A DNA stretch of 63,698 bases, filler included, from Collodictyon triciliatum (Eukaryota), in NCBI GenBank assembly GCA_043381765.1. It is 6 parts of 6 records of this genome, joined end to end, with 100 filler letters (N's around TTAATTAATTAA, not from the genome) between each part and the next. Parts side by side here need not be neighbours in the genome. Positions count along the whole stretch, not along the records: positions 37,290 to 49,614 come from JBHJMP010002200.1; 5 more parts are not named here. One strand, 5' to 3'. The position numbers were made by a program, and so were the translations under genes. This document shows, piece after piece, positions 37,190 through 62,138 of the stretch; the stretch's first letter is position 1, and the number at the start of each line of letters is the position of its first letter. Under the pieces are notes generated by a model. The model was not told the DNA's origin, did not search any database, and saw only the letters and a program-made list of their open reading frames with translations.

Positions 37190-37289
37190 NNNNNNNNNNN
37201 NNNNNNNNNNNNNNNNNNNNNNNNNNNNNNNNNTTAATTAATTAANNNNNNNNNNNNNNNNNNNNNNNNNNNNNNNNNNNNNNNNNNNN

Positions 37290-37334
<45 letters not shown>

Positions 37335-37508
37335 AAAAAAACAAAAAAACAAAAAAAAAACAAAAAAACAAAAAAACAAAAAAAACAAAAAAAACAAAAA
37401 CAAAAACAAAAACAAAAACAAAACAAAAAAAGACAACAGCAGAGTAAAATCTAAGGCAGCCTGGAATATAAAGAACAGTATAGAAGCAACTAAGCAGTAT
37501 GGCAGGGT

Positions 37509-38829
37509 TTTGAACACAGAGCCGATGTTTGGGTGGTGGTTTCGGGACCCACGGGACTGCGGATTTTTTGTCGGGGGTATTCTGTACGGGGTCCACTGGG
37601 GCGTTCACCTGTGCATCACATTCCCAAGCCTCATTCTGTTTCTGCTGGGACTCATTGTGCTCCTTCCGGTGCGGGGACTGGAAGGGTGGGCGCAGAGGCG
37701 GTTCGGAGTGAGGTGGGAGCAGATGTTTATCTTCCACTACGTGTCCGTGTCAGCGCGGTTCCTCATACTCCTGATGGGGCTCCGGGTGGAGGTGAGCGGG
37801 GCGGAGGCGCTGGAGGGCATGGCGAGGGCGGAGACGTCTGGAGAGCAGAGACGCCAGATGGAGGACAGCCACAACAACCACAGCCACAGCCACAGCCACA
37901 GCCACAGCCACAACAACAATGACAGCGCGGGGGAGTGGCGCGGGTGCGTGCTGGTGTTCAACCACTACTCGCTGCTGGACGGGATCCTGCTGACGGGGCA
38001 CTGCCCGCTGGCGCACTCGTACGTGGCCAAGGCCGAGCTGCTGTGGTACCCGCTGGTCAACATCGGGATGTGGGTGATGGGGCACTTCTTTGTGGACCGG
38101 GGCAACCGGCAGCAGGCCACGGAGGCGCTGCACCAGGCGGCGGAGCTTCTGCGGCGGCGCAGGCGGTGCATCGCCATCAGCCCGGAGGGCACGCGGTCGC
38201 ACGACGGGCGGCTGGGGGCCTTCAAGAAAGGGCCGTTCCACCTGGCCGGTGCGGCGGGCGTCCCCATCGTGCCGTGCGCCATCCACGGCGCCTTCCGCAG
38301 CTGGCCGCGGCACTCGTGGGCGCCGCACCCCGGGCACATCCGCATCGTCTTCGGCCGCCCCATCCCCGCCCCGGCCCCGCACGCCGTCCTCGCCACCGTC
38401 CCGCCGCCCCTGCTGCAGCGCCTGGCCCCGCGAAGCCTGGCGGCCCTGGCAGCCTCGGCCCTGGCCCGCACGCCCGCCGCCCCCGACATCTCCGACGCCT
38501 CCGACGCCCTGCGCCTGGTGCCGGACAAGGCCCTCCACGCTCTGGCTCGCGACTGCTGGGCCATGGCCGTGTGGGATGCGCTGCGCTCGATGCTGCTCGA
38601 GACCCAGCCCGATGGCCTCGCCAATCGCCCCTCCTGGTCCCACCACGAACCGCACGACGCACACACACACGCCCACGCCCACACACACATCCATGTCTTG
38701 CCAACAGACGCGCCCTCGGCACTCGCGTCCGACAGTCCGTGCCACGAGGCTGTCAGGTCTCTGCCCTCGCTGAGTCCTGAGCAGAGCCACCAACAGACCC
38801 AGCCGCTCCCGCACCAAGTGCTGGAGTAG
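37509..38829 (+). CDS. 1-acyl-sn-glycerol-3-phosphate acyltransferase (LPAAT/PlsC family); start uncertain near contig edge
   Basis: Motifs FNHYSLLD, YVAKAEL, HFFVDRGN, ISPEGTRS, FKKGPFHLA, VPIVP, and an N-terminal hydrophobic helix. Confidence 0.92.
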
Positions 38830-39399
38830 ATTGGTATACATAGTTGTGTTGCTTTTGTTTCTTGCTATTTCCTTATTTTCGTTTATATCAATCTCGCAGT
38901 GTGATTATTCCTACGCCATCCACCCGGTGCGCCTTTCCGCGACTCTGGTGGTAGATGGTTGCCTCTTGACAAATAAATAAAGTATGACAGTGGTTTGTGG
39001 GGGCAGCAGTGGGCAGCGGCAATCGGAAATGGGAGGAAACCATCCGATTGGGTCAAAAGCAAACAACGGATGTGCGAGCGAAAACACACAGTCGCCGTTC
39101 AGAGAGGGGCGTTGTGTGCGCGGGGTTTTATATTCCACTTTTGAGCATATTCATTGTATGTGGTGTAACTTTGTAAAAGAATCAACAAACCCAAGCCTAC
39201 CGCCTTGTTTTCAAGAAAGGTATCTTCGACGCTGCTCTCGTTGTCTCATCGCCCTGATCACTTTCAACTTTAGAGCAGCACAGAAAGAACTTGAAACCGA
39301 CCGCCCTCATATTCGCTCAAAAACTGGTTTATTAAAAGCAGTAGTGAAACATAAGCTTTCGACGATCTGAACTTTTTTTTTTCTTACAGGGAAAGACAA

Positions 39400-40908
39400 A
39401 TGCCACCGAAGGTTAGTCCAGCAACTCTCTTTCCTCTCTTCCTTATTTTTTCTCGACTGTTTCCATCAATCTTTTCTTTCAAGTCAAGGCGCTTTTAGTT
39501 TCCTTTTGTCTTTTGGACTCCTTTTCCATACCTATTATTATACACATGTTCAAGAATTGTGCGCATAGAAAATTTTATTCTGGACATAGCTATTTTCGCA
39601 TCGGTGAGTGTGCGACCTTTTATTTTTTTTTTGACTTTTTTTTTTTCCCTTTTGAACAACGCATAGCAAGAACCAAAGTTGTTCTGGGTAAAGGATGAGA
39701 AAGAGGGATTCGTTCTTGTCGAAGCTCATCCAAGAGAACCCGAAAAGTACATCATGCGCACCAAAACTGGGGTATGTTCTGGTATAAGTAAATAATCTTT
39801 ACTGTGTTTAGTCAGAAATATTTACACGCTGATACAGAGTATCTTTTATTCGATTATATGTTTAACATAACTTGGCCATGTGCGCTGCTACATGAATGGA
39901 GACTAATTTTCTTATTTATGTTTTTATTCTCATCAATATTATTCGCCTTCGCGTCCCGCGATCATAGCAAAAAGAATATACAGGCAGAGTTTGGCCGGCC
40001 AATCCAAACGATCAAGATGGTGTACCTGACAACACACAACTTATGCATCTTCATGAGCCTGGAGTGTTGCACAATATTCGTTCACGATACACAAAAGATG
40101 AGATATATGTAATGTATTCTTGAAATACTTTTCATCATTATATATTACTTTGAATTATTTTATTGGTAATCTTATGATCATAGTTATTTTCAAAAAGAAT
40201 TTTTTTCTAAAAAAACGTCGCATCTCTCACTTTATCATTTTTCTTTCCTTCTCCATCACACAGTCATACACGGGATACATACTCATTGCAGTGAATCCTT
40301 ATAAACCATTGAGAATGTACTCTGATGAAATGATACAAGAATATCGAGGAAAATCAATGGGAGCACGTCCTCCTCATGTCTTTGCCGTAGCCGATCGTGC
40401 CTATCGTCTAATGAAATCAGGTGTGTAAAATAATGAGCACAAATAAGCGATAATGAAAAACCATCCTATACAATTTAACCCGTTATTCGCGAATTGAATC
40501 CATTACATTTATACATCTTTTATATAAAAAACCAGACGCCACAAGCCAATCAATCCTCATCAGGTGGACTACCTTGTGCTTCTATCATGCCTTTGCTGAA
40601 TTCGGCTTTTTATATAAACTGAGGAGCACTATGAAATATTTCCATTGAGAAGTTATTTTGAGTCCCATTACAGTTAAAATGTTTCTAATCAATTTAATCA
40701 TCTATCTGATTCTTCAGTGGTGAGTCTGGTGCTGGAAAAACTGAGACTAGCAAATATGTGATGAAATTTTTGGTTAAGGTATCCCCATTGCACATTTTTT
40801 TAAATCTTTCATTAATTAACGCGGTATCGAGACGAAGAATCACTAAAAAAATAAAATAAATTCTTTTATTATATCCAATCATAATCTTTCTTTTCTTTTC
40901 TTACTTTC

Positions 40909-49602: not shown

Positions 49603-49928
49603 AAAAAAAAACATNNNNNNNNNNNNNNNNNNNNNNNNNNNNNNNNNNNNNNNNNNNNTTAATTAATTAANNNNNNNNNNNNNNNNNNNNNNNNNNNNNN
49701 NNNNNNNNNNNNNNAAAAAAAAAAAAAAAAAACAAAAATAACAAAAATAACAAAAATAACAAAAATAACAAAAATAACAAAAATAAAAAAAAAAAAAAAA
49801 GAAAAGAAAAAAACCAGACATGCCACAGACCATAGATGAGGGTGCTTGACTGTAGCATGAGCGTGCGTGAGAAAGTGAAAAGACATTTTTTTTCGAAAAC
49901 ATACCAACACATGATACGCCCACCACAG

Positions 49929-51825: not shown

Positions 51826-53856
51826 ATGGATGAACAATTCGAACTGAATCAATCAATCGAGGAAATCATGGTAAGTTTGAATAACACCCACCTGTATTTT
51901 TTTTTTCTCGGCCGTGCCCTTCCCACCTGTGTGATTGGGGCTCCTTGCAGCAAACACAACAAAGCATCTTCCACTCATGGCTCCAAAGAAGTTTGTGGTT
52001 TCACTGTTTTGTTCGTGGCCCGTTCTTATTTAAAGAGCGGTGCACACACGTATATGACAAACCCACGAACAGATGCTGATTCACACTCTTCCAAACGAGG
52101 AACAAAGTGACATTCGTTACTGTCGCGCACACATTAAGGCAGAACACAAAAGACACGAAAAATTGCCACATTACGAAGATCGCCTTTAAAAAAAAAAAAA
52201 AAAGGGATCCAATATATACCCTCCTCCAAGTCCTTGGTTGTTCCGTTTCATTTCACCCGCCAAACCACACAAGAGGCCACGATCACCTGTCCTTTTTTTT
52301 CCACCTCTCTTTTTTGACATTCTGTATTCAAGCGCACATAACCACCACCCCTGAAAAGCAAAACAAAGCTGCTCTGCCAATAGGAAAGAAAATACCCAGA
52401 CCCCGTCGTGACAGAGGCGAGCAGGCAAAGAAGGACACGTCCACTACTAACCGCCACTTCTCATTTCACTACCCAACAGCGCGTCTCCATGAGCGACATA
52501 TTTCCTCGGCCGGCTGAGACCATGTCCGAAAGTGACCACTCAAGCAGCTCTGGGTCCTCTATACCGCAAAGCAAACTCCCGGCCGAAGCAGAGGGCGCAG
52601 GCAACATCAGCAAAACCACGTCAGAATCAGGTTCTGGCTTCGAGATAGGCTCTGACGACATGTACCCCATCATGCTGAGCTTCGAGGAAGGCGTTCACGA
52701 GCTGCGTGGGACCTGCAATCTCTTGGACTACAGCAACTTGCAAGAGGAGCACAAGCCCTCCATGCCAGACGAACCAGTCCCCGCCGAGCTTCTCCACATC
52801 CCAGAGCTCGACCAGAAACCAGTCATCTCACGCCAGCGCCTCGGCCCCATATTTGTCATCGATGTGCCGAAGGATGCGCGCTTCCTATCCTCGCAGAGCT
52901 ACCTCTTCAGCACAGCAGTGTATGTCCAGGATGCCAGAACGGGAGATCCGGTCAGATCCGATGAGATTGTGGGTGTGGAGCACGACAAGAACCTGACGTA
53001 TCTGTCCCACTTCCGGCCGAAAGTCAGACAGGTGCCCGAGAAGTTTAGCTTTGACTTTTCACGGATGCGGATAAACAGGCCGTCTCCGAACCTCATCCGA
53101 ATAGTCTTTGAGATCTACAAAGACTCTACCCTCATCAAGTCCGTGTACACCACGCCCTTGCGAGTGTGCGCCCAGACCAAGCATGCAATCAGGCACGAAG
53201 GCTGCATAGTCTGGGAAGCCATCACCCAGTCGGGACAGGCAAGCCTGGAGGATTCCGTCCTGCAGGAGGTGAACCACTTCATCTCCACCGACAGCCACAT
53301 CACCCGCCCGCTCGATATCGAAGACCTCCGCGATCTGAACACTCTTCACAGCAACGCTTCGAGCCGCTCCGTGACCAACTACGACCTGAGTGGCATCGAA
53401 AAGAAGCACTTTCTTCGTCTGTGGATGAAGATCACCACACTCAAGAAGCTCCTGGTTGCTGAGCCTATCCTTGCAAAGCTCTGGAACGACGGCTTCATCC
53501 ACTCCATCAAGGAAAAGACCAGCCCCAGCGCACCAAGCTTCCCACACCAGGCAGAGTCTTCCCACAAGATGAAGACAAAGCGGCTGGTTGGCAGAAGACC
53601 AAGTGTCGCTGCGATGGTTGCATCCCCAACAGACCTGACAGCAAGGTACTTTGCGCTGTATCTCCGGTTCGAAAAGGAGCGGCTCAATGTGGTTGTCGTT
53701 GATTCGACCGGAGTCACCTCCACCATCCAGGCCAACCTCGCAAGGTCCAAGACCATTTGCGAGAAACTCCGAGAGATACTTGAAGTGGGCACAAGTTTCC
53801 TAATGGCCAGAGATGGCACGATGCGCACTTTACAGAAAATAAGGGATGACTTTTGA
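51826..53856 (+). CDS. Divergent STAT-like protein (Ig-fold DNA-binding domain, linker, degenerate SH2)
   Basis: Exon 51826-51870 (GTAAGT donor) joins 52480-53856 in frame, with a TACTAAC branch point near 52445. TRPLDIEDLRDL...FLRLW...LAKLWNDGFIHSI...LYLRFEKE parallels the Dictyostelium STAT linker/SH2 as I recall it. Confidence 0.65.
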
Positions 53857-55361: not shown

Positions 55362-55854
55362 TTCCTGTTATCACGGCCACGAAAGAAGTATCCACATCTG
55401 TCTGTTTTATGAACACGGTCGATGCTTGTGATTTAGTAAATTCCATAATGAAAAAGAGGCATGCCACTCGCTATTTATTATCGATTTTTTTGAGTCTTTT
55501 CCTCTTCTCTGCCTTGCTTCCTTTCTCTCCACTCCATTCCTATTTGTAGTCCCAGCAAACATTGAAGAATGGATAACTGTATATATTTGGTGGTAACAAA
55601 AGTATTGTCGTTAGTGCTTTCCTGTCTAACTCACAGCAAATACTACATCCTGGTTTTCACCCCTCTGTTTCCTGAGTCTCTTTTTCTTTTTCTTTTTCTT
55701 TTTCTTTTTCTTTTTGTTTCTGAAAAAAAAAAAGAAAAGGAGAGGTATAGTTTTAATGATTCCAGGAAAAAACTGCCCGTGAACTAACTTTTATATGATT
55801 CCAACCGCAGGAAACTGTTCATATTGTTGCCCCTAGGCGTGTTGGATAAAATCG

Positions 55855-57285
55855 ATGGAACAAAAAATCAACTATTTTCCCTCTCCTGGGAGGGTCATCC
55901 ATGCCGAATTTAAAGCATTTGCAAGCAACATTGTTGTTCCACCCGCGTCTCCAAGCGTATCAAACATACGCCCGGTCAAGGTGATAAGGGGAAAGTCACT
56001 GACGTCTCAAGTGAGCACATCAACTGGCCGGTCATCAGCAGAGCCGATTCCCAGTTCTCATGTTCAGCCAAAACCCGCCATGCTTAATGAGCAATACGTA
56101 GAATCAAGAAGTCTTGGAAAACTCGAGGCGAGCCTGGTACCACAAATGCATCAATTCTCACCGACAGACCCAACGTTGTCAGGAAGCAGCACCAGTGTTC
56201 ACGGAACATTAATGTTAAGAGGTGGCCCGTCGGCTGGTGTTATTACTTCTCGCCAAGTTATCGAGCCTCCATTTGTCATCTCCGTCCTCACGGGATGTGC
56301 CCCATTCAACTATGCAACCCCACCCAGGGATGGCAATGACTGCACGATTGACGAGCAATGTGAGCTTCCTGCAATTACAACACGTAAGAAGCGAGAAGCA
56401 TACTCTAACCGAGCTGGGCTGAAGCAAACCAAGCAAAGAGCAAGTGATAGCATCTGGCAGGTCTGCGTTCGTCTAGTCGATGGAGAAGGACGGGAATGGG
56501 GTGTGGACGATGTCATCGGAATGGAACACCAGCGGCCGCTGCCACGGGTCATACTTCCGAGCATCCGATTCAAAGGAGACAACGAGACAGCAGATGTAGA
56601 GCTCCGTCGCATGCGAATCAACACATCCCGTGACCACCGTTTTGTTTATTTTGTCCTCTCTGTTTTCAAGCATGCAACACTCATCGGTATAGTTCGGACT
56701 CCTTTGCTTCGTGTCTGTGCACACTCGCAACACCGCAGGCGGTTTTTGGCCCGATTTCAGCCAAGCAAGCCCTCTCCAACTTCCCCATCAGAATCAACTG
56801 TCATCCAGCCTCCCGCAAAAGTGGTTGATGACAGTCACCTCGATGAACATAATACAAACAGCGATTTTAGCAATATAGCAGCTAATGAACTCGAAGATGT
56901 TGAATGTGGACGTGATGAAAATGATGATGAGGAAGAAGCACCTTCGCTCTTGCATGATTCAGAGGGCACCTACATAATACCTAAAGGTGTAGGCTTTCTT
57001 CCAATCCATGAAATCATATCAAACTCGAATCGTGTTGGTGTTTTTCAAAAAGTCGGGAAGGGATTCAAGGTGGTTCGGCGCCTTTCTGGTGATGTAAACC
57101 ACATGGATTCGTTAACGCAACCTAAATCCGATTCTAACATGCAAGAGGAAGCTCAACACAACAAGACCATTAGTATGAGAACCAACCATCCGTATGATGA
57201 GATTGAGGAGGCTGCTCACAATCTCGCCTTCTTGCATAGCATACATGAGCAGCTCATATCCAAGCACAGCCGACCGCCAACATGA
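55855..57285 (+). CDS. Tandem paralogue carrying only the Ig-fold DNA-binding-like domain
   Basis: 476-aa single ORF sharing VI(T)SRQ..P.FVI.V, D..(I/V)G.EH, RMRIN and LRVCA..H with the 52480-53856 protein. Confidence 0.7.
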   Translation: MEQKINYFPSPGRVIHAEFKAFASNIVVPPASPSVSNIRPVKVIRGKSLTSQVSTSTGRSSAEPIPSSHVQPKPAMLNEQYVESRSLGKLEASLVPQMHQFSPTDPTLSGSSTSVHGTLMLRGGPSAGVITSRQVIEPPFVISVLTGCAPFNYATPPRDGNDCTIDEQCELPAITTRKKREAYSNRAGLKQTKQRASDSIWQVCVRLVDGEGREWGVDDVIGMEHQRPLPRVILPSIRFKGDNETADVELRRMRINTSRDHRFVYFVLSVFKHATLIGIVRTPLLRVCAHSQHRRRFLARFQPSKPSPTSPSESTVIQPPAKVVDDSHLDEHNTNSDFSNIAANELEDVECGRDENDDEEEAPSLLHDSEGTYIIPKGVGFLPIHEIISNSNRVGVFQKVGKGFKVVRRLSGDVNHMDSLTQPKSDSNMQEEAQHNKTISMRTNHPYDEIEEAAHNLAFLHSIHEQLISKHSRPPT

Positions 57286-61943: not shown

Positions 61944-62138
61944 AGCTTGTTTTTTTTTTTTTTTTTTTTTTTTTTTGCCCTAAAACTCCTTTTATAATTT
62001 TTTTTTTTTTTGGATAGAGGGTTGAAAAAAGTTGGATTNNNNNNNNNNNNNNNNNNNNNNNNNNNNNNNNNNNNNNNNNNNNTTAATTAATTAANNNNNN
62101 NNNNNNNNNNNNNNNNNNNNNNNNNNNNNNNNNNNNNN

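What the first reader, a model, noticed from the sequence alone, without database searches (positions are those of the whole stretch)
37530..38810. Second independent G-to-C skew-inversion island, inside the LPAAT catalytic domain
Seen: same polarity as the 2.5-3.6 kb island, on a different contig. Codons are G-ending up to about 38250 (GGG, CTG, GCG, CGG) and mostly C-ending after about 38260 (CGC ATC GTC TTC GGC CGC CCC ATC CCC GCC). The left flank is A-rich and the right flank T-rich. The switch falls within a conserved enzyme domain, so protein-level selection is an unlikely cause. Recurrence suggests a repeated chromosomal element that overrides codon usage. Both islands are long intron-free, CpG-rich exons.
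Basis: partly seen in the sequence, partly recalled or inferred. Interest (0 to 1): 0.7.

Follow-up and report, generated by a model that had tools for sequence, protein, structure and literature searches.

The report
G-to-C codon switch inside GC-rich exons
Within one uninterrupted exon of a lipid-synthesis gene, silent codon positions are mostly G in the first part and mostly C in the second, and a second unrelated gene shows this more strongly, which points to a local strand-biased mutation or repair process of unknown cause.

Summary
At four-fold degenerate sites of the LPAAT ORF (37525-38829, +) the best change point is nt 38256. G:C is 86:23 to the left and 44:65 to the right (Fisher 9e-9; 0 of 20000 permutations). 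The 2.5-3.6 kb island shows the same pattern more strongly (72:5 then 48:97).

The pattern is not a property of the protein family. None of 29 GC-rich bacterial homologues shows it. It is also not a neighbour-base effect, a CpG effect, a true inverted repeat or a repeated element.

It is not an assembly artefact or a contaminant. cDNA-like contigs run collinearly across the switch and end in a poly(A) tail.

No close donor exists for the LPAAT. The other island is exon 1 of a lineage-specific, multi-exon gene.

Each island has a G-regime zone, a neutral zone at the GC3 maximum, and a C-leaning zone that is strong only in island 1.

My best reading (about 0.35) is a long-lived recombination-initiation site, combining GC-biased conversion with resection-strand mutagenesis. 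Transcription-linked asymmetry is a close rival. There are only two islands and no whole genome was available.

The parts
37290..37431 (+). A-rich microsatellite (A runs spaced by single C) at the start of the contig, forming the left flank of the island
   Evidence: Tandem Repeats Finder reports period 1, 142 copies, 81% matches. The sequence is shown.
37504..38995 (+). Body of the polyadenylated LPAAT mRNA. The first base follows an AG. One cDNA-like contig carries 20 letters before 37504 that are not in the DNA, so there is a spliced 5' leader or upstream exon. A poly(A) run follows 38995. No joint was reported inside the ORF.
   Evidence: From. X1 records cover 37504-37862 and 37928-38995, and the latter is followed by 22 A. 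The X2 record starts 20 nt before 37504 with unlike letters. The break at 37863-37927 is a repeat that the tool skipped. The tool only guesses that these runs are RNA. I read them as cDNA from the poly(A) run and the adaptor-like loose ends.
37525..38829 (+). LPAAT / PlsC-type acyltransferase ORF, 434 aa, TAG stop
   Evidence: ORF. Pfam PF01553 scores 98.3 bits against a cutoff of 23. 5kym_A aligns with E=1.3e-19.
37525..38244 (+). G regime: all eight four-fold codon families are G-ending. The 40-codon four-fold skew is +0.38 to +0.87. GC3 rises from 0.68 to 1.0.
37863..37927 (+). (CACAGC)/(CAACAA) microsatellite encoding the His-Ser/Asn run, just before the catalytic domain
   Evidence: skipped repeat; HSHSHSHSH at aa 119-127.
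37936..38367 (+). Acyltransferase core. The Pfam envelope is aa 138-253 and structural homology runs to aa 281. HX4D is at 37960-37980, EGTR at 38182-38199, FKKGPF at 38221-38241 and PIVP at 38263-38274.
   Evidence: The motif names are recalled.
38245..38544 (+). Neutral or 'standard' zone holding the change point (38256) and the GC maximum (0.82 at 38340-38489). Leu is CTG while Ala is GCC, Gly GGC and Arg CGC. Four-fold skew is -0.13 to -0.20.
38545..38724 (+). Weak C zone in the unconserved C-terminal tail. Four-fold skew is -0.40 to -0.62 and GC3 falls to 0.75. It contains the (CA)n/CACGCC repeat at 38654-38697 that encodes HTHAHAHTH.
38971..38995 (+). AAATAAATAAA poly(A) signal (38971-38981) and the cleavage site at 38995
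   Evidence: Sequence. The poly(A) loose end behind 38995 is.
2398..2509 (+). Island 1: (AAACCA)19 microsatellite directly upstream, followed by a purine-rich leader at 2510-2561 (G26 C5 A20 T1)
2562..3586 (+). Island 1 is exon 1 of a lineage-specific, IPT/TIG-type multi-exon gene. It has a G zone at 2562-2921 (four-fold skew +0.75 to +1.0), a neutral zone at 2922-3221 (about 0), and a C zone from 3222 to 3584 (-0.5 to -1.0; Leu CTC 20 : CTG 3).
   Evidence: The exon end is inferred from the GTACGT at 3587 and from homology.
3587..3765 (+). Intron 1 of the island-1 gene (GT..AG, 179 nt). GC is 0.41, with C 49 against G 24.
   Evidence: the sequence, and the reading frame restored against Diphylleia homologues. 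No RNA evidence.
3766..3991 (+). Exon 2 of the island-1 gene. It is still C-ending (four-fold C 24 : G 5). GC3 in successive windows is 0.92, 0.48 and 0.80. The region I read as exon 3 (4127-4336; boundaries not determined) decays from 0.64 to 0.35.

Best explanation
SHOWN. Two unrelated long exons in a roughly 37% GC genome are GC3-saturated humps, with GC3 0.68-0.9 at the edges and 0.95-1.0 in the middle. Inside each hump, silent sites pass through three zones: a G regime, a neutral zone that coincides with the GC maximum, and a C-leaning zone. The C-leaning zone is extreme in island 1 and weak in the LPAAT. The asymmetry is mainly G versus C. It is strongest at synonymous sites and is absent from amino-acid-determining positions of the conserved LPAAT core. 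It does reshape weakly constrained protein segments.

INFERRED. This is a local, centre-symmetric, strand-asymmetric substitution regime superimposed on a GC-favouring process. It is not selection on the protein, foreign composition or an artefact.

MOST LIKELY MECHANISM (inferred, about one in three). Each island marks a long-lived recombination-initiation (double-strand-break) site.
- GC-biased gene conversion builds the GC3 hump around the break zone.
- 5'-to-3' resection leaves the top strand single-stranded to the left of the break and the bottom strand single-stranded to the right.
- Damage and translesion repair of exposed cytosines, including C>G changes, then deplete C on the top strand to the left and G on the top strand to the right.
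- Over evolutionary time this gives G-rich | neutral | C-rich at free sites.
For: - The change point and its strength are established.
- There are three zones, and the neutral zone sits at the GC maximum. In island 1 the neutral zone is 2922-3221 and the GC3>=0.95 plateau is 2622-3461. In the LPAAT the neutral zone is 38245-38544 and the GC peak is 38340-38489.
- GC3 is tent-shaped rather than uniform.
- The asymmetry is mainly G versus C. A:T at four-fold sites does not differ significantly between sides (p=0.16 pooled).
- The bias extends beyond exon 1. The purine-rich 5' leader of island 1 has G26:C5 and intron 1 has C49:G24. Exon 2 has four-fold C24:G5.
- The bias is lineage-specific. In 58 island-1 G-zone columns where the window differs from at least two Diphyllatea homologues, codon positions 1+2 shift towards G by a mean of +0.70 (37 up, 12 down). 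In 52 C-zone columns the shift is -0.09 (MWU p=0.002).
- None of 29 GC-rich homologues, and 1 of all 93 analysed, reach the LPAAT's left-right skew difference of 0.97.
- Literature, from passages read in PMC7615360. [quoted passage not shown] The central +/-100 bp shows no asymmetry. [quoted passage not shown] C>G has off-centre peaks at 700-800 bp. That gives the polarity, the neutral centre and the G-versus-C character seen here.
Against: - GC enrichment is largely confined to exons. Intron 1 inside island 1's right arm has GC 0.41, and the LPAAT 3' UTR and 5' flank have about 0.41-0.43, while adjacent four-fold sites are at 0.68-0.9. A purely regional conversion bias should raise these too.
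- Island 1's left arm stops at the 5' leader, about 560 nt from the centre. Its right arm runs for about 1.1 kb.
- The LPAAT has only a weak C zone. Its right half looks like standard GC-rich codon usage.
- The LPAAT 3' UTR has no G/C skew (34:34).
- The human footprint also predicts loss of A on the left, yet the left flanks here are A-rich.
- Contigs from two other cells or strains differ from the window at 1 of 1302 ORF positions but at 4 of 388 flanking positions (p=0.011). That is not what a hyper-mutable spot would naively show, although contigs are a poor measure of diversity.
- Both islands sit at the 5' coding end of their genes, which also fits a transcription-linked cause.
- No recombination data exist, and there are only two islands.
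Confidence: 0.35

Rival explanations
1. The asymmetry is linked to transcription, in one of two forms.
(a) A promoter-proximal, R-loop-type G-skew zone on the non-template strand lies over a background in which the coding strand is mildly C-rich.
(b) An internal divergent promoter sits at the GC maximum, and both outgoing transcripts have C-rich coding strands.
For: - Both G zones lie at the 5' coding end of their gene.
- The neighbouring myosin gene's first exon and the 34 nt before it are also G-skewed (G34:C20 and G16:C6).
- Ordinary ORFs prefer C over G in 7 of 8 four-fold families. Coding-strand introns are C>G (49:24; 35:24). So the LPAAT's right half may simply be the baseline at high GC3.
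- Human CpG-island promoters carry co-oriented positive GC skew downstream of the TSS (PMC3787257, abstract and passages read).
- One X2 cDNA-like contig starts with adaptor-like letters at 38248, the left edge of the neutral zone.
Against: - The skew reaches +0.9 to +1.0 at four-fold sites. As I recall, this far exceeds known transcription-associated skews.
- Island 1's C regime (Leu CTC 20:3, against CTG 18:5 in the neutral zone, p=2e-5) goes well beyond the baseline. A 5' zone alone does not predict it.
- None of 4 other long ORFs (52384, 55837, 20355-, 30753-) has a marked G excess in its first third, although their transcription starts are unknown.
- The LPAAT G zone begins after a spliced leader, so not at the transcription start.
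- The 38248 start appears in one run only and could be reverse transcriptase stalling at the G-rich half.
Confidence: 0.25
2. Selection acts on the transcript. Long intron-free exons are driven to GC-ending codons, for example to support expression or export of intron-poor stretches. An unknown polar requirement then favours a G-rich 5' half and a C-rich 3' half.
For: - GC saturation is confined to exons. The two islands are the long intron-free exons, whereas the intron-dense myosin gene next door is AT-rich.
- The ORF shows few differences between strains or cells.
- The native LPAAT ORF folds slightly more stably than 25 synonymous shuffles made within each half (-622 versus -608 +/- 8.6; 0 of 25 as low).
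Against: - Destroying the polarity does not weaken folding. Whole-ORF synonymous shuffles give -617 +/- 8.5, and 5 of 25 are as low as the native sequence.
- The bias also appears in the 5' leader and in intron 1.
- In the island-1 G zone it changes amino acids in the direction of the bias.
- As far as I recall, no known selective reason exists for G-ending versus C-ending codons across all eight families.
Confidence: 0.12
3. The asymmetry is linked to replication. The island centre is a fixed origin or termination site, and leading and lagging strands accumulate opposite G/C biases.
For: The pattern is symmetric about a centre, and poly(dA:dT)-rich flanks lie on both sides.
Against: - From recall, the polarity is that of a terminus under the usual rule that the leading strand is G-rich. 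Origins give C-to-G.
- From recall, known nuclear replication skews are small and extend over many kb, not +/-1 over 400 nt.
- The bias is much weaker in the non-coding DNA next to the islands.
Confidence: 0.07
4. The composition is foreign. The LPAAT was recently acquired from a GC-rich donor and retains the donor's composition.
For: - The best matches are bacterial PlsC proteins.
- In a 52-row tree the query sits among bacterial sequences, apart from the three-row group that holds the two eukaryote-like homologues included (P0065, labelled MMETSP, and P0099, my reading).
- No protein matched its N-terminal 137 residues.
Against: - Identity is at most 47%, over only a third of the protein.
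- The terminal branch is long (1.29) and its placement is unresolved.
- GC3 is hump-shaped, not uniform.
- None of 29 GC-rich homologues shows the switch.
- The transcript has a spliced leader, an AATAAA signal and a poly(A) tail.
- The stronger island lies in a gene whose only homologues are from Diphyllatea.
Confidence: 0.03
5. The switch is an artefact, either an inverted amplification or assembly chimera, or a mis-join of two sequences.
For: Genomes of this lineage have been assembled from single amplified cells, and such amplification is prone to inverted chimeras (bioRxiv 10.64898/2026.06.11.730069, passages read). Whether the window comes from such data is unknown.
Against: - One cDNA-like contig runs collinearly from 37928 to 38995, and another from 37928 to 38277, so both cross 38256.
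- A conserved domain reads in frame through the switch.
- Only composition-level inverted matches of 70-93% over 14-36 nt were found, and no true repeat.
- Lake-metagenome contigs match pieces on both sides with no differences.
Confidence: 0.02

Closest known systems
Strand-asymmetric mutation footprint around human meiotic DSB hotspots (Hinch et al. 2023, PMC7615360; passages read)
   Same: - There is a neutral centre.
- The flanks carry C-loss on the forward strand to the left and G-loss to the right.
- C>G changes are prominent and peak off-centre.
- The scale is hundreds of bp to 1-2 kb.
- That polarity would build G-rich then C-rich sequence.
   Different: - In humans it is seen only as rare de novo or rare-variant excess at short-lived PRDM9 hotspots. 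The passages I read do not report a fixed compositional imprint.
- Here free sites are nearly saturated (four-fold skew up to +/-1).
- The signal sits inside coding exons, is largely exon-confined, and A is not depleted on the left.
- No recombination data exist for this organism.
GC-skewed CpG-island promoters and R-loop zones (Ginno et al. 2013, PMC3787257; abstract and passages read)
   Same: A GC-rich island at the 5' end of a gene carries positive GC skew co-oriented with transcription for roughly 1 kb.
   Different: - CpG observed/expected is not elevated relative to the rest of the genome.
- In island 1 the skew goes on to strongly negative values rather than returning to baseline.
- The island is coding sequence, not a promoter with its first intron.
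- The magnitude is far larger.
GC3-rich gene classes attributed to GC-biased gene conversion, such as the bimodal GC3 of grasses (PMC4316631) and the gerbil GC hotspots (PMC7403616); only the abstracts in search listings were seen
   Same: Extreme, local GC3 enrichment of some genes against an AT-richer genome changes amino-acid content where constraint is weak.
   Different: From the abstracts and from recall, those cases concern G+C content. A G-then-C partition of synonymous sites within one exon does not appear in the abstracts I saw.
Bacterial-type PlsC / LPAAT (Thermotoga maritima PlsC, PDB 5kym; Pfam PF01553)
   Same: The catalytic core aligns over aa 137-281 (E=1.3e-19). The HX4D, EGTR, FKKGPF and PIVP blocks are all present.
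   Different: - The protein has a 137-aa N-terminal extension with a hydrophobic segment and a His/Ser repeat.
- It has a 150-aa Ala/Pro/His/Leu-rich C-terminal tail with no detectable homologues.
- The gene is expressed as a spliced, polyadenylated eukaryotic mRNA.

Membership tests
PlsC/LPAAT acyltransferase (PF01553) | Pfam model score above the gathering cutoff | tested here: met
   98.3 bits against a cutoff of 23, covering aa 138-253
PlsC/LPAAT acyltransferase (PF01553) | Catalytic HX4D block and EGTR substrate-binding block (motif definitions recalled) | tested here: met
   NHYSLLD at aa 146-152 and PEGTRS at aa 220-225. Both align to the same blocks of 5kym_A.
PlsC/LPAAT acyltransferase (PF01553) | Acyl transfer to lysophosphatidic acid | not testable with these tools
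   This needs an enzyme assay or complementation of a plsC mutant.
Meiotic DSB hotspot with GC-biased conversion | GC peak centred on the site, decaying over about 1 kb | tested here: met
   GC3 goes 0.68 to 1.0 to 0.72 in the LPAAT. In island 1 it stays at or above 0.95 from 2622 to 3461 and then decays through exons 2-3.
Meiotic DSB hotspot with GC-biased conversion | Strand asymmetry that flips at a neutral centre, with C-loss on the forward strand to the left | tested here: met
   G | neutral | C zones, compared with the description in PMC7615360
Meiotic DSB hotspot with GC-biased conversion | The effect is regional, so non-coding DNA inside the hump is enriched too | tested here: inconclusive
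   Intron 1 has GC 0.41 and the UTRs and flanks have 0.41-0.43, against about 0.33-0.37 for the bulk. Adjacent four-fold sites are at 0.68-0.9.
Meiotic DSB hotspot with GC-biased conversion | Elevated recombination or conversion, with W-to-S fixation bias | not testable with these tools
   No genome, population data or orthologous DNA were available.
R-loop-prone GC-skew promoter island | Positive skew co-oriented with transcription, starting at the TSS | tested here: inconclusive
   The G zones are at the 5' coding ends. The LPAAT TSS lies off the contig, behind a spliced leader. The island-1 TSS is not mapped.
R-loop-prone GC-skew promoter island | CpG-island character relative to a CpG-depleted genome | tested here: not met
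   CpG observed/expected is 0.84-0.87 in the islands and 0.87 elsewhere.
Replication-origin skew jump | Upward (C-rich to G-rich) jump at the origin (polarity recalled) | tested here: not met
   Both islands switch from G-rich to C-rich.
Recent horizontal transfer or contaminant | A close donor homologue and uniform foreign composition | tested here: not met
   - Identity is at most 47%.
- The branch is long and unresolved.
- GC3 is hump-shaped.
- The mRNA is spliced and polyadenylated.
Inverted amplification or assembly chimera | True inverted repeat at the junction, and no independent molecule spanning it | tested here: not met
   No true inverted repeat was found. Contigs from two other runs span 38256.

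The most novel reading that the evidence does not exclude
This deep-branching protist lineage (Diphyllatea-like) may carry many evolutionarily fixed recombination-initiation sites inside long exons. GC-biased conversion together with resection-strand mutagenesis would have rewritten silent sites to nearly all G on one side and nearly all C on the other. If so, a fossil map of break sites, and the strand geometry of their repair, could be read from a single genome sequence.
Probability: 0.25. Interest if true: 0.8.

Novelty: new variant of a known kind. Interest (0 to 1): 0.6.

Why it matters
Strand-asymmetric mutagenesis around meiotic breaks has so far been visible only statistically, across tens of thousands of human hotspots (PMC7615360).

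If these islands are its fixed imprint, they offer three things:
- a sequence-only read-out of stable recombination sites;
- a natural experiment on how far a neutral bias can push codon usage and protein composition;

If the cause is transcriptional instead, the skew would still be extreme. By recall, it exceeds any reported TSS-proximal skew.

There is also a practical point. Gene finders and codon-based HGT or contaminant screens would misjudge such exons.

Tried and rejected
- **Whole genome.** None is held, so no genome-wide census was possible.
- **Earlier findings.** Three look-ups found nothing.
- **Orthologous LPAAT DNA.**
  - Metagenome contigs gave 68 loci. Matches spanning most of the core were at most 45-46% identical, and short partial matches reached 50%.
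  - Genome contigs gave 36 loci at 45% or less.
  - None is orthologous, so directional substitutions could not be polarised.
- **Protein searches.**
  - The LPAAT N-terminal region (aa 1-137) had no hits.
  - The 52384 ORF had no hits.
  - The Atlas found nothing for island 1.
  - Pfam found nothing in 7 other ORFs.
- **RNA genes.** Rfam gave 0 matches and ARAGORN gave 0 tRNAs in the window.
- **Sequencing runs.**
  - No RNA holder is listed.
  - X1 and X2 are only guessed to be RNA. I read them as cDNA from their loose ends.
  - No loose end indicating an antisense transcript was reported.
  - No contig covers DNA upstream of 37504 in X1 or X2.
  - I do not count either blank as evidence.
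- **The 20-letter leader.** It was not found in the window at up to 3 mismatches. It was not found in the paper library. Spliced leader versus upstream exon is therefore unresolved.
- **True inverted repeat or repeated element.** Rejected.
- **CpG-island reading.** Rejected.
- **Keto/amino (C-to-T deamination) signature.** A:T at four-fold sites was not significant (p=0.16 pooled, p=0.036 in island 1 alone).
- **mRNA-folding selection for the polarity.** Not supported.
- **Overlapping antisense gene.** I considered a gene with G-ending codons in the right half, namely the minus-strand ORF 37965..38864, which shares third positions. I rejected it for three reasons:
  - its translation is Arg/Ser/Cys/Trp-rich;
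  - the + frame carries conserved LPAAT blocks up to aa 281;
  - the poly(A) mRNA is on the + strand.
- **Literature.** Searches found no description of an intragenic G-then-C synonymous partition, or of GC islands in Diphyllatea.
Full report
**What the window is.** It is a chain of independent contigs joined by N44-TTAATTAATTAA-N44 linkers. The pieces are 12338, 12326, 12325, 12325 and 12324 nt long, followed by a cut sixth piece, so they look like a length-sorted assembly. Most pieces start or end in microsatellites. The finding lies at the start of the fourth contig (37290-49614). Outside the two islands the window is 37% GC.

**The gene.** ORF 37525..38829 (+) encodes 434 aa.
- Pfam PF01553 scores 98.3 bits over aa 138-253.
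- The only solved relative is Thermotoga PlsC 5kym_A, aligned over aa 137-281 at E=1.3e-19.
- The HX4D (aa 146-152), EGTR (220-225), FKKGPF (233-239) and PIVP (247-250) blocks are intact.
- Around the core are a 137-aa N-terminal extension with a hydrophobic segment and a microsatellite-encoded His/Ser run, and a 144-aa tail that is 54% P/H/T/S/L/Q plus 17% Ala.

**It is a real, expressed eukaryotic gene.**
- Contigs of two coded runs (X1, X2) lie on 37504-37862 and 37928-38995 without joints. The gap is a repeat that the tool skips.
- One contig ends in 22 A that are not in the DNA, 14 nt after an AAATAAATAAA signal.
- Another begins with 20 letters unlike the DNA just before 37504, which follows an AG.
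- Adaptor-like letters mark 5' ends. The tool only guesses that these runs are RNA. I read them as cDNA from these ends, and the adaptor identity is from recall.
- Two lake or freshwater metagenome runs hold error-free fragments on both sides of the switch, and one fragment (37461-37611) joins the AT-rich flank to the ORF.
- A contaminant or an inverted chimera is therefore excluded. Contigs 37928-38995 and 37928-38277 cross the switch.

**The observation.**
- At 246 four-fold sites the change point is nt 38256 (codon 244). G:C is 86:23 before and 44:65 after (p=9e-9; 0 of 20000 permutations).
- The effect survives a control for neighbouring bases (LR 42.5).
- It is carried by Ala, Gly and Arg (41:13 to 7:34), and also by Val and Thr. 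Leu stays CTG (21:6 versus 14:6).
- Within the aligned core (aa 138-290) the four-fold skew is +0.63 on the left and -0.33 on the right, a difference of 0.97.
- In 29 homologues with four-fold GC of at least 0.8, out of 93 analysed, the mean difference is -0.20 and the maximum is +0.24. One of the 93 reaches the query value.
- Skew at codon positions 1+2 in the core matches 28 GC-rich homologues: 0.03 versus 0.03 on the left, and -0.06 versus 0.04 on the right.
- The protein is therefore held by selection, while the silent sites carry the bias.

**Recurrence.**
- In the first contig, the ORF frame from 2562 has four-fold G:C of 72:5 up to 2918 and 48:97 after it (p=1e-19). The neighbour-base control gives LR 104.
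- Its profile has three zones. Skew is +0.75 to +1.0 over 2562-2921, about 0 over 2922-3221, and -0.5 to -1.0 over 3222-3521.
- Codon tables show a G regime in all eight families, then a 'standard' regime (Leu CTG 18:5, Ala 1:6, Gly 2:8, Arg 2:11), then a C regime (Leu CTC 20:3).
- The LPAAT has the G regime, then the standard regime (38245-38544), then only a weak C zone (38545-38724, skew -0.4 to -0.6).
- In both islands the neutral zone coincides with the GC maximum, and GC3 is tent-shaped.
- The two islands are the two largest G-to-C switches in the window (D=206 and 122; next 78; SD 31).
- Ten other ORFs have ordinary third-position composition and no comparable polarity. Only the short frame at 38984, which lies over the myosin transcription start, is G-rich in its first third (11:1). 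Pooled, nine of these ORFs prefer C over G in 7 of 8 families.
- A G-to-C switch is its own reverse complement, so 'same polarity' does not depend on strand or on gene orientation.

**What island 1 is.**
- Among 1.84 billion representative proteins, its product has 4 homologues with E at or below 0.001.
- Three are Diphylleia rotans transcripts and one is a metagenome protein, at 29-51% identity.
- The alignment shows that the homologues continue into sequence that the window encodes further downstream in other frames.
- I therefore read island 1 as exon 1 (2562-3586). A GTACGT donor lies at 3587 and an AG acceptor at 3764-3765. Exon 2 spans 3766 to about 3991 and exon 3 starts at about 4127. 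There is no RNA evidence for this structure.
- One homologue ends in an IPT/TIG domain.
- This places the organism near Diphyllatea (CRuMs) and shows that the stronger island lies in a native gene.
- The C bias continues across intron 1 (C49:G24, GC 0.41) into exon 2 (four-fold C24:G5). It fades in exon 3, where GC3 falls from 0.64 to 0.35.
- In the G zone, residues that differ from at least two homologues shift codon positions 1+2 towards G (mean +0.70; 37 up and 12 down, of 58 columns). In the C zone there is no shift (-0.09 over 52 columns, a few of which lie beyond the exon end). MWU p=0.002.

**What it is not.**
- It is not a repeated element or a palindrome. Only microsatellite matches and composition-level inverted matches were found.
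- It is not a CpG island. Observed/expected is 0.84-0.87 against 0.87 for the bulk.
- It is not explained by recent transfer.
  - The best identities are 47% or less over a third of the protein.
  - The terminal branch is 1.29 and unresolved among bacterial PlsC sequences. The two eukaryote-like homologues included sit in a separate three-row group.
  - The bacterial-type origin of the LPAAT itself stays open, because no eukaryotic orthologue was found.
- There is no evidence that the polarity is selected for mRNA folding. The native ORF folds at -622. Within-half synonymous shuffles give -608 +/- 8.6. Whole-ORF shuffles that erase the polarity give -617 +/- 8.5, and 5 of 25 are as stable as the native.

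**Mechanism.**
- The data call for a local, centre-symmetric, strand-asymmetric process that mainly exchanges G and C. A:T asymmetry is not significant. This process acts on top of a GC-favouring one.
- The closest described process is the mutation footprint of meiotic break repair. [quoted passage not shown] There is no asymmetry in the central +/-100 bp. C>N occurs on the forward-strand flank and G>N on the other flank. C>G peaks off-centre (PMC7615360, passages read).
- At a hotspot that stays in place, together with GC-biased conversion, this would produce what is seen. I give it about 0.35.
- Points against it:
  - GC enrichment is mostly confined to exons (intron and UTRs at about 0.41).
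  - The arms of island 1 are unequal.
  - The C zone of the LPAAT is weak.
  - The left flanks are A-rich.
  - The ORF shows few differences between strains or cells (1 of 1302 positions against 4 of 388).
- The main rival (about 0.25) is transcription.
  - Both G zones are at 5' coding ends.
  - The neighbouring myosin gene's first exon is G-skewed (34:20).
  - The genome's baseline is C over G on coding strands.
  - Co-oriented G skew downstream of promoters is known in humans (PMC3787257).
  - This rival does not predict island 1's C regime or the size of the effect.
  - A cDNA-like 5' end at 38248 in one run could be an internal start, or reverse transcriptase stalling where the G-rich half begins.
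- Replication, transcript-level selection, transfer and artefact rank lower.

**Limits.**
- There are only two islands, no genome, no orthologous DNA and no stranded RNA data.
- The frame of island 1 rests on GC3 periodicity and on homology.
- My literature searches found no description of such a partition.

Noticed in passing
window 1-63698 (linkers at 12339-12438, 24765-24864, 37190-37289, 49615-49714, 62039-62138): The window is not one locus. It is a chain of length-sorted contigs of about 12.3 kb, joined by N-TTAATTAATTAA-N linkers. Most contig ends are microsatellites. Two of the five full contigs carry an extreme GC island.
   Followed up: yes
window 2562-4336: The island-1 ORF is exon 1 of a multi-exon gene. 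Its only detectable relatives are three Diphylleia rotans transcripts and one metagenome protein, and one relative ends in an IPT/TIG domain. This places the organism near Diphyllatea (CRuMs).
   Followed up: partly
window 39030-40780 and beyond: A myosin gene lies next to the LPAAT.
- Pfam Myosin_head matches exon 40264-40419, and a GESGAGKT P-loop lies near 40720.
- Its transcription start is at 39030, only 35 nt after the LPAAT poly(A) site.
- It has a 5'-UTR intron (about 39125-39273), an ATG at 39400, and many short exons with AT-rich introns.
- This contrasts with the long GC-rich exons.
   Followed up: partly
window 37504: One cDNA-like contig carries 20 letters that are not in the DNA, immediately before 37504 and after an AG. 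A second contig starts exactly at 37504. This is either a spliced leader or an upstream 5'-UTR exon lying off the contig. The leader was not found in the window or in the paper library.
   Followed up: partly
window 38248: In one run, a cDNA-like contig begins with adaptor-like letters at 38248, the point where the G regime ends. It could be an internal transcript start, or reverse transcriptase stopping at the G-rich half.
   Followed up: no
window 37863-37927 and 38654-38697: In-frame microsatellites inside the LPAAT ORF encode His/Ser/Asn and His/Thr/Ala runs. The contigs that cover the second repeat show 6 gaps against the window. I did not locate those gaps, so length variation between cells or strains is only a possibility.
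   Followed up: no
window 52384-53856 and 55837-57285: Two tandem single-exon ORFs of about 485 aa are weak paralogues (32% identity over 79 aa, E=3e-8). Neither has a Pfam match. The first, the only one searched, has no homologue in the 5.8-billion-protein search.
   Followed up: partly
window 20352-22427 (-): A 691-aa ORF is rich in Gln/Pro/Ser repeats encoded by a 12-nt tandem array (20811-20957). The + strand here has GC skew of +0.3 to +0.5, which reflects amino-acid repeats rather than a skew switch.
   Followed up: no
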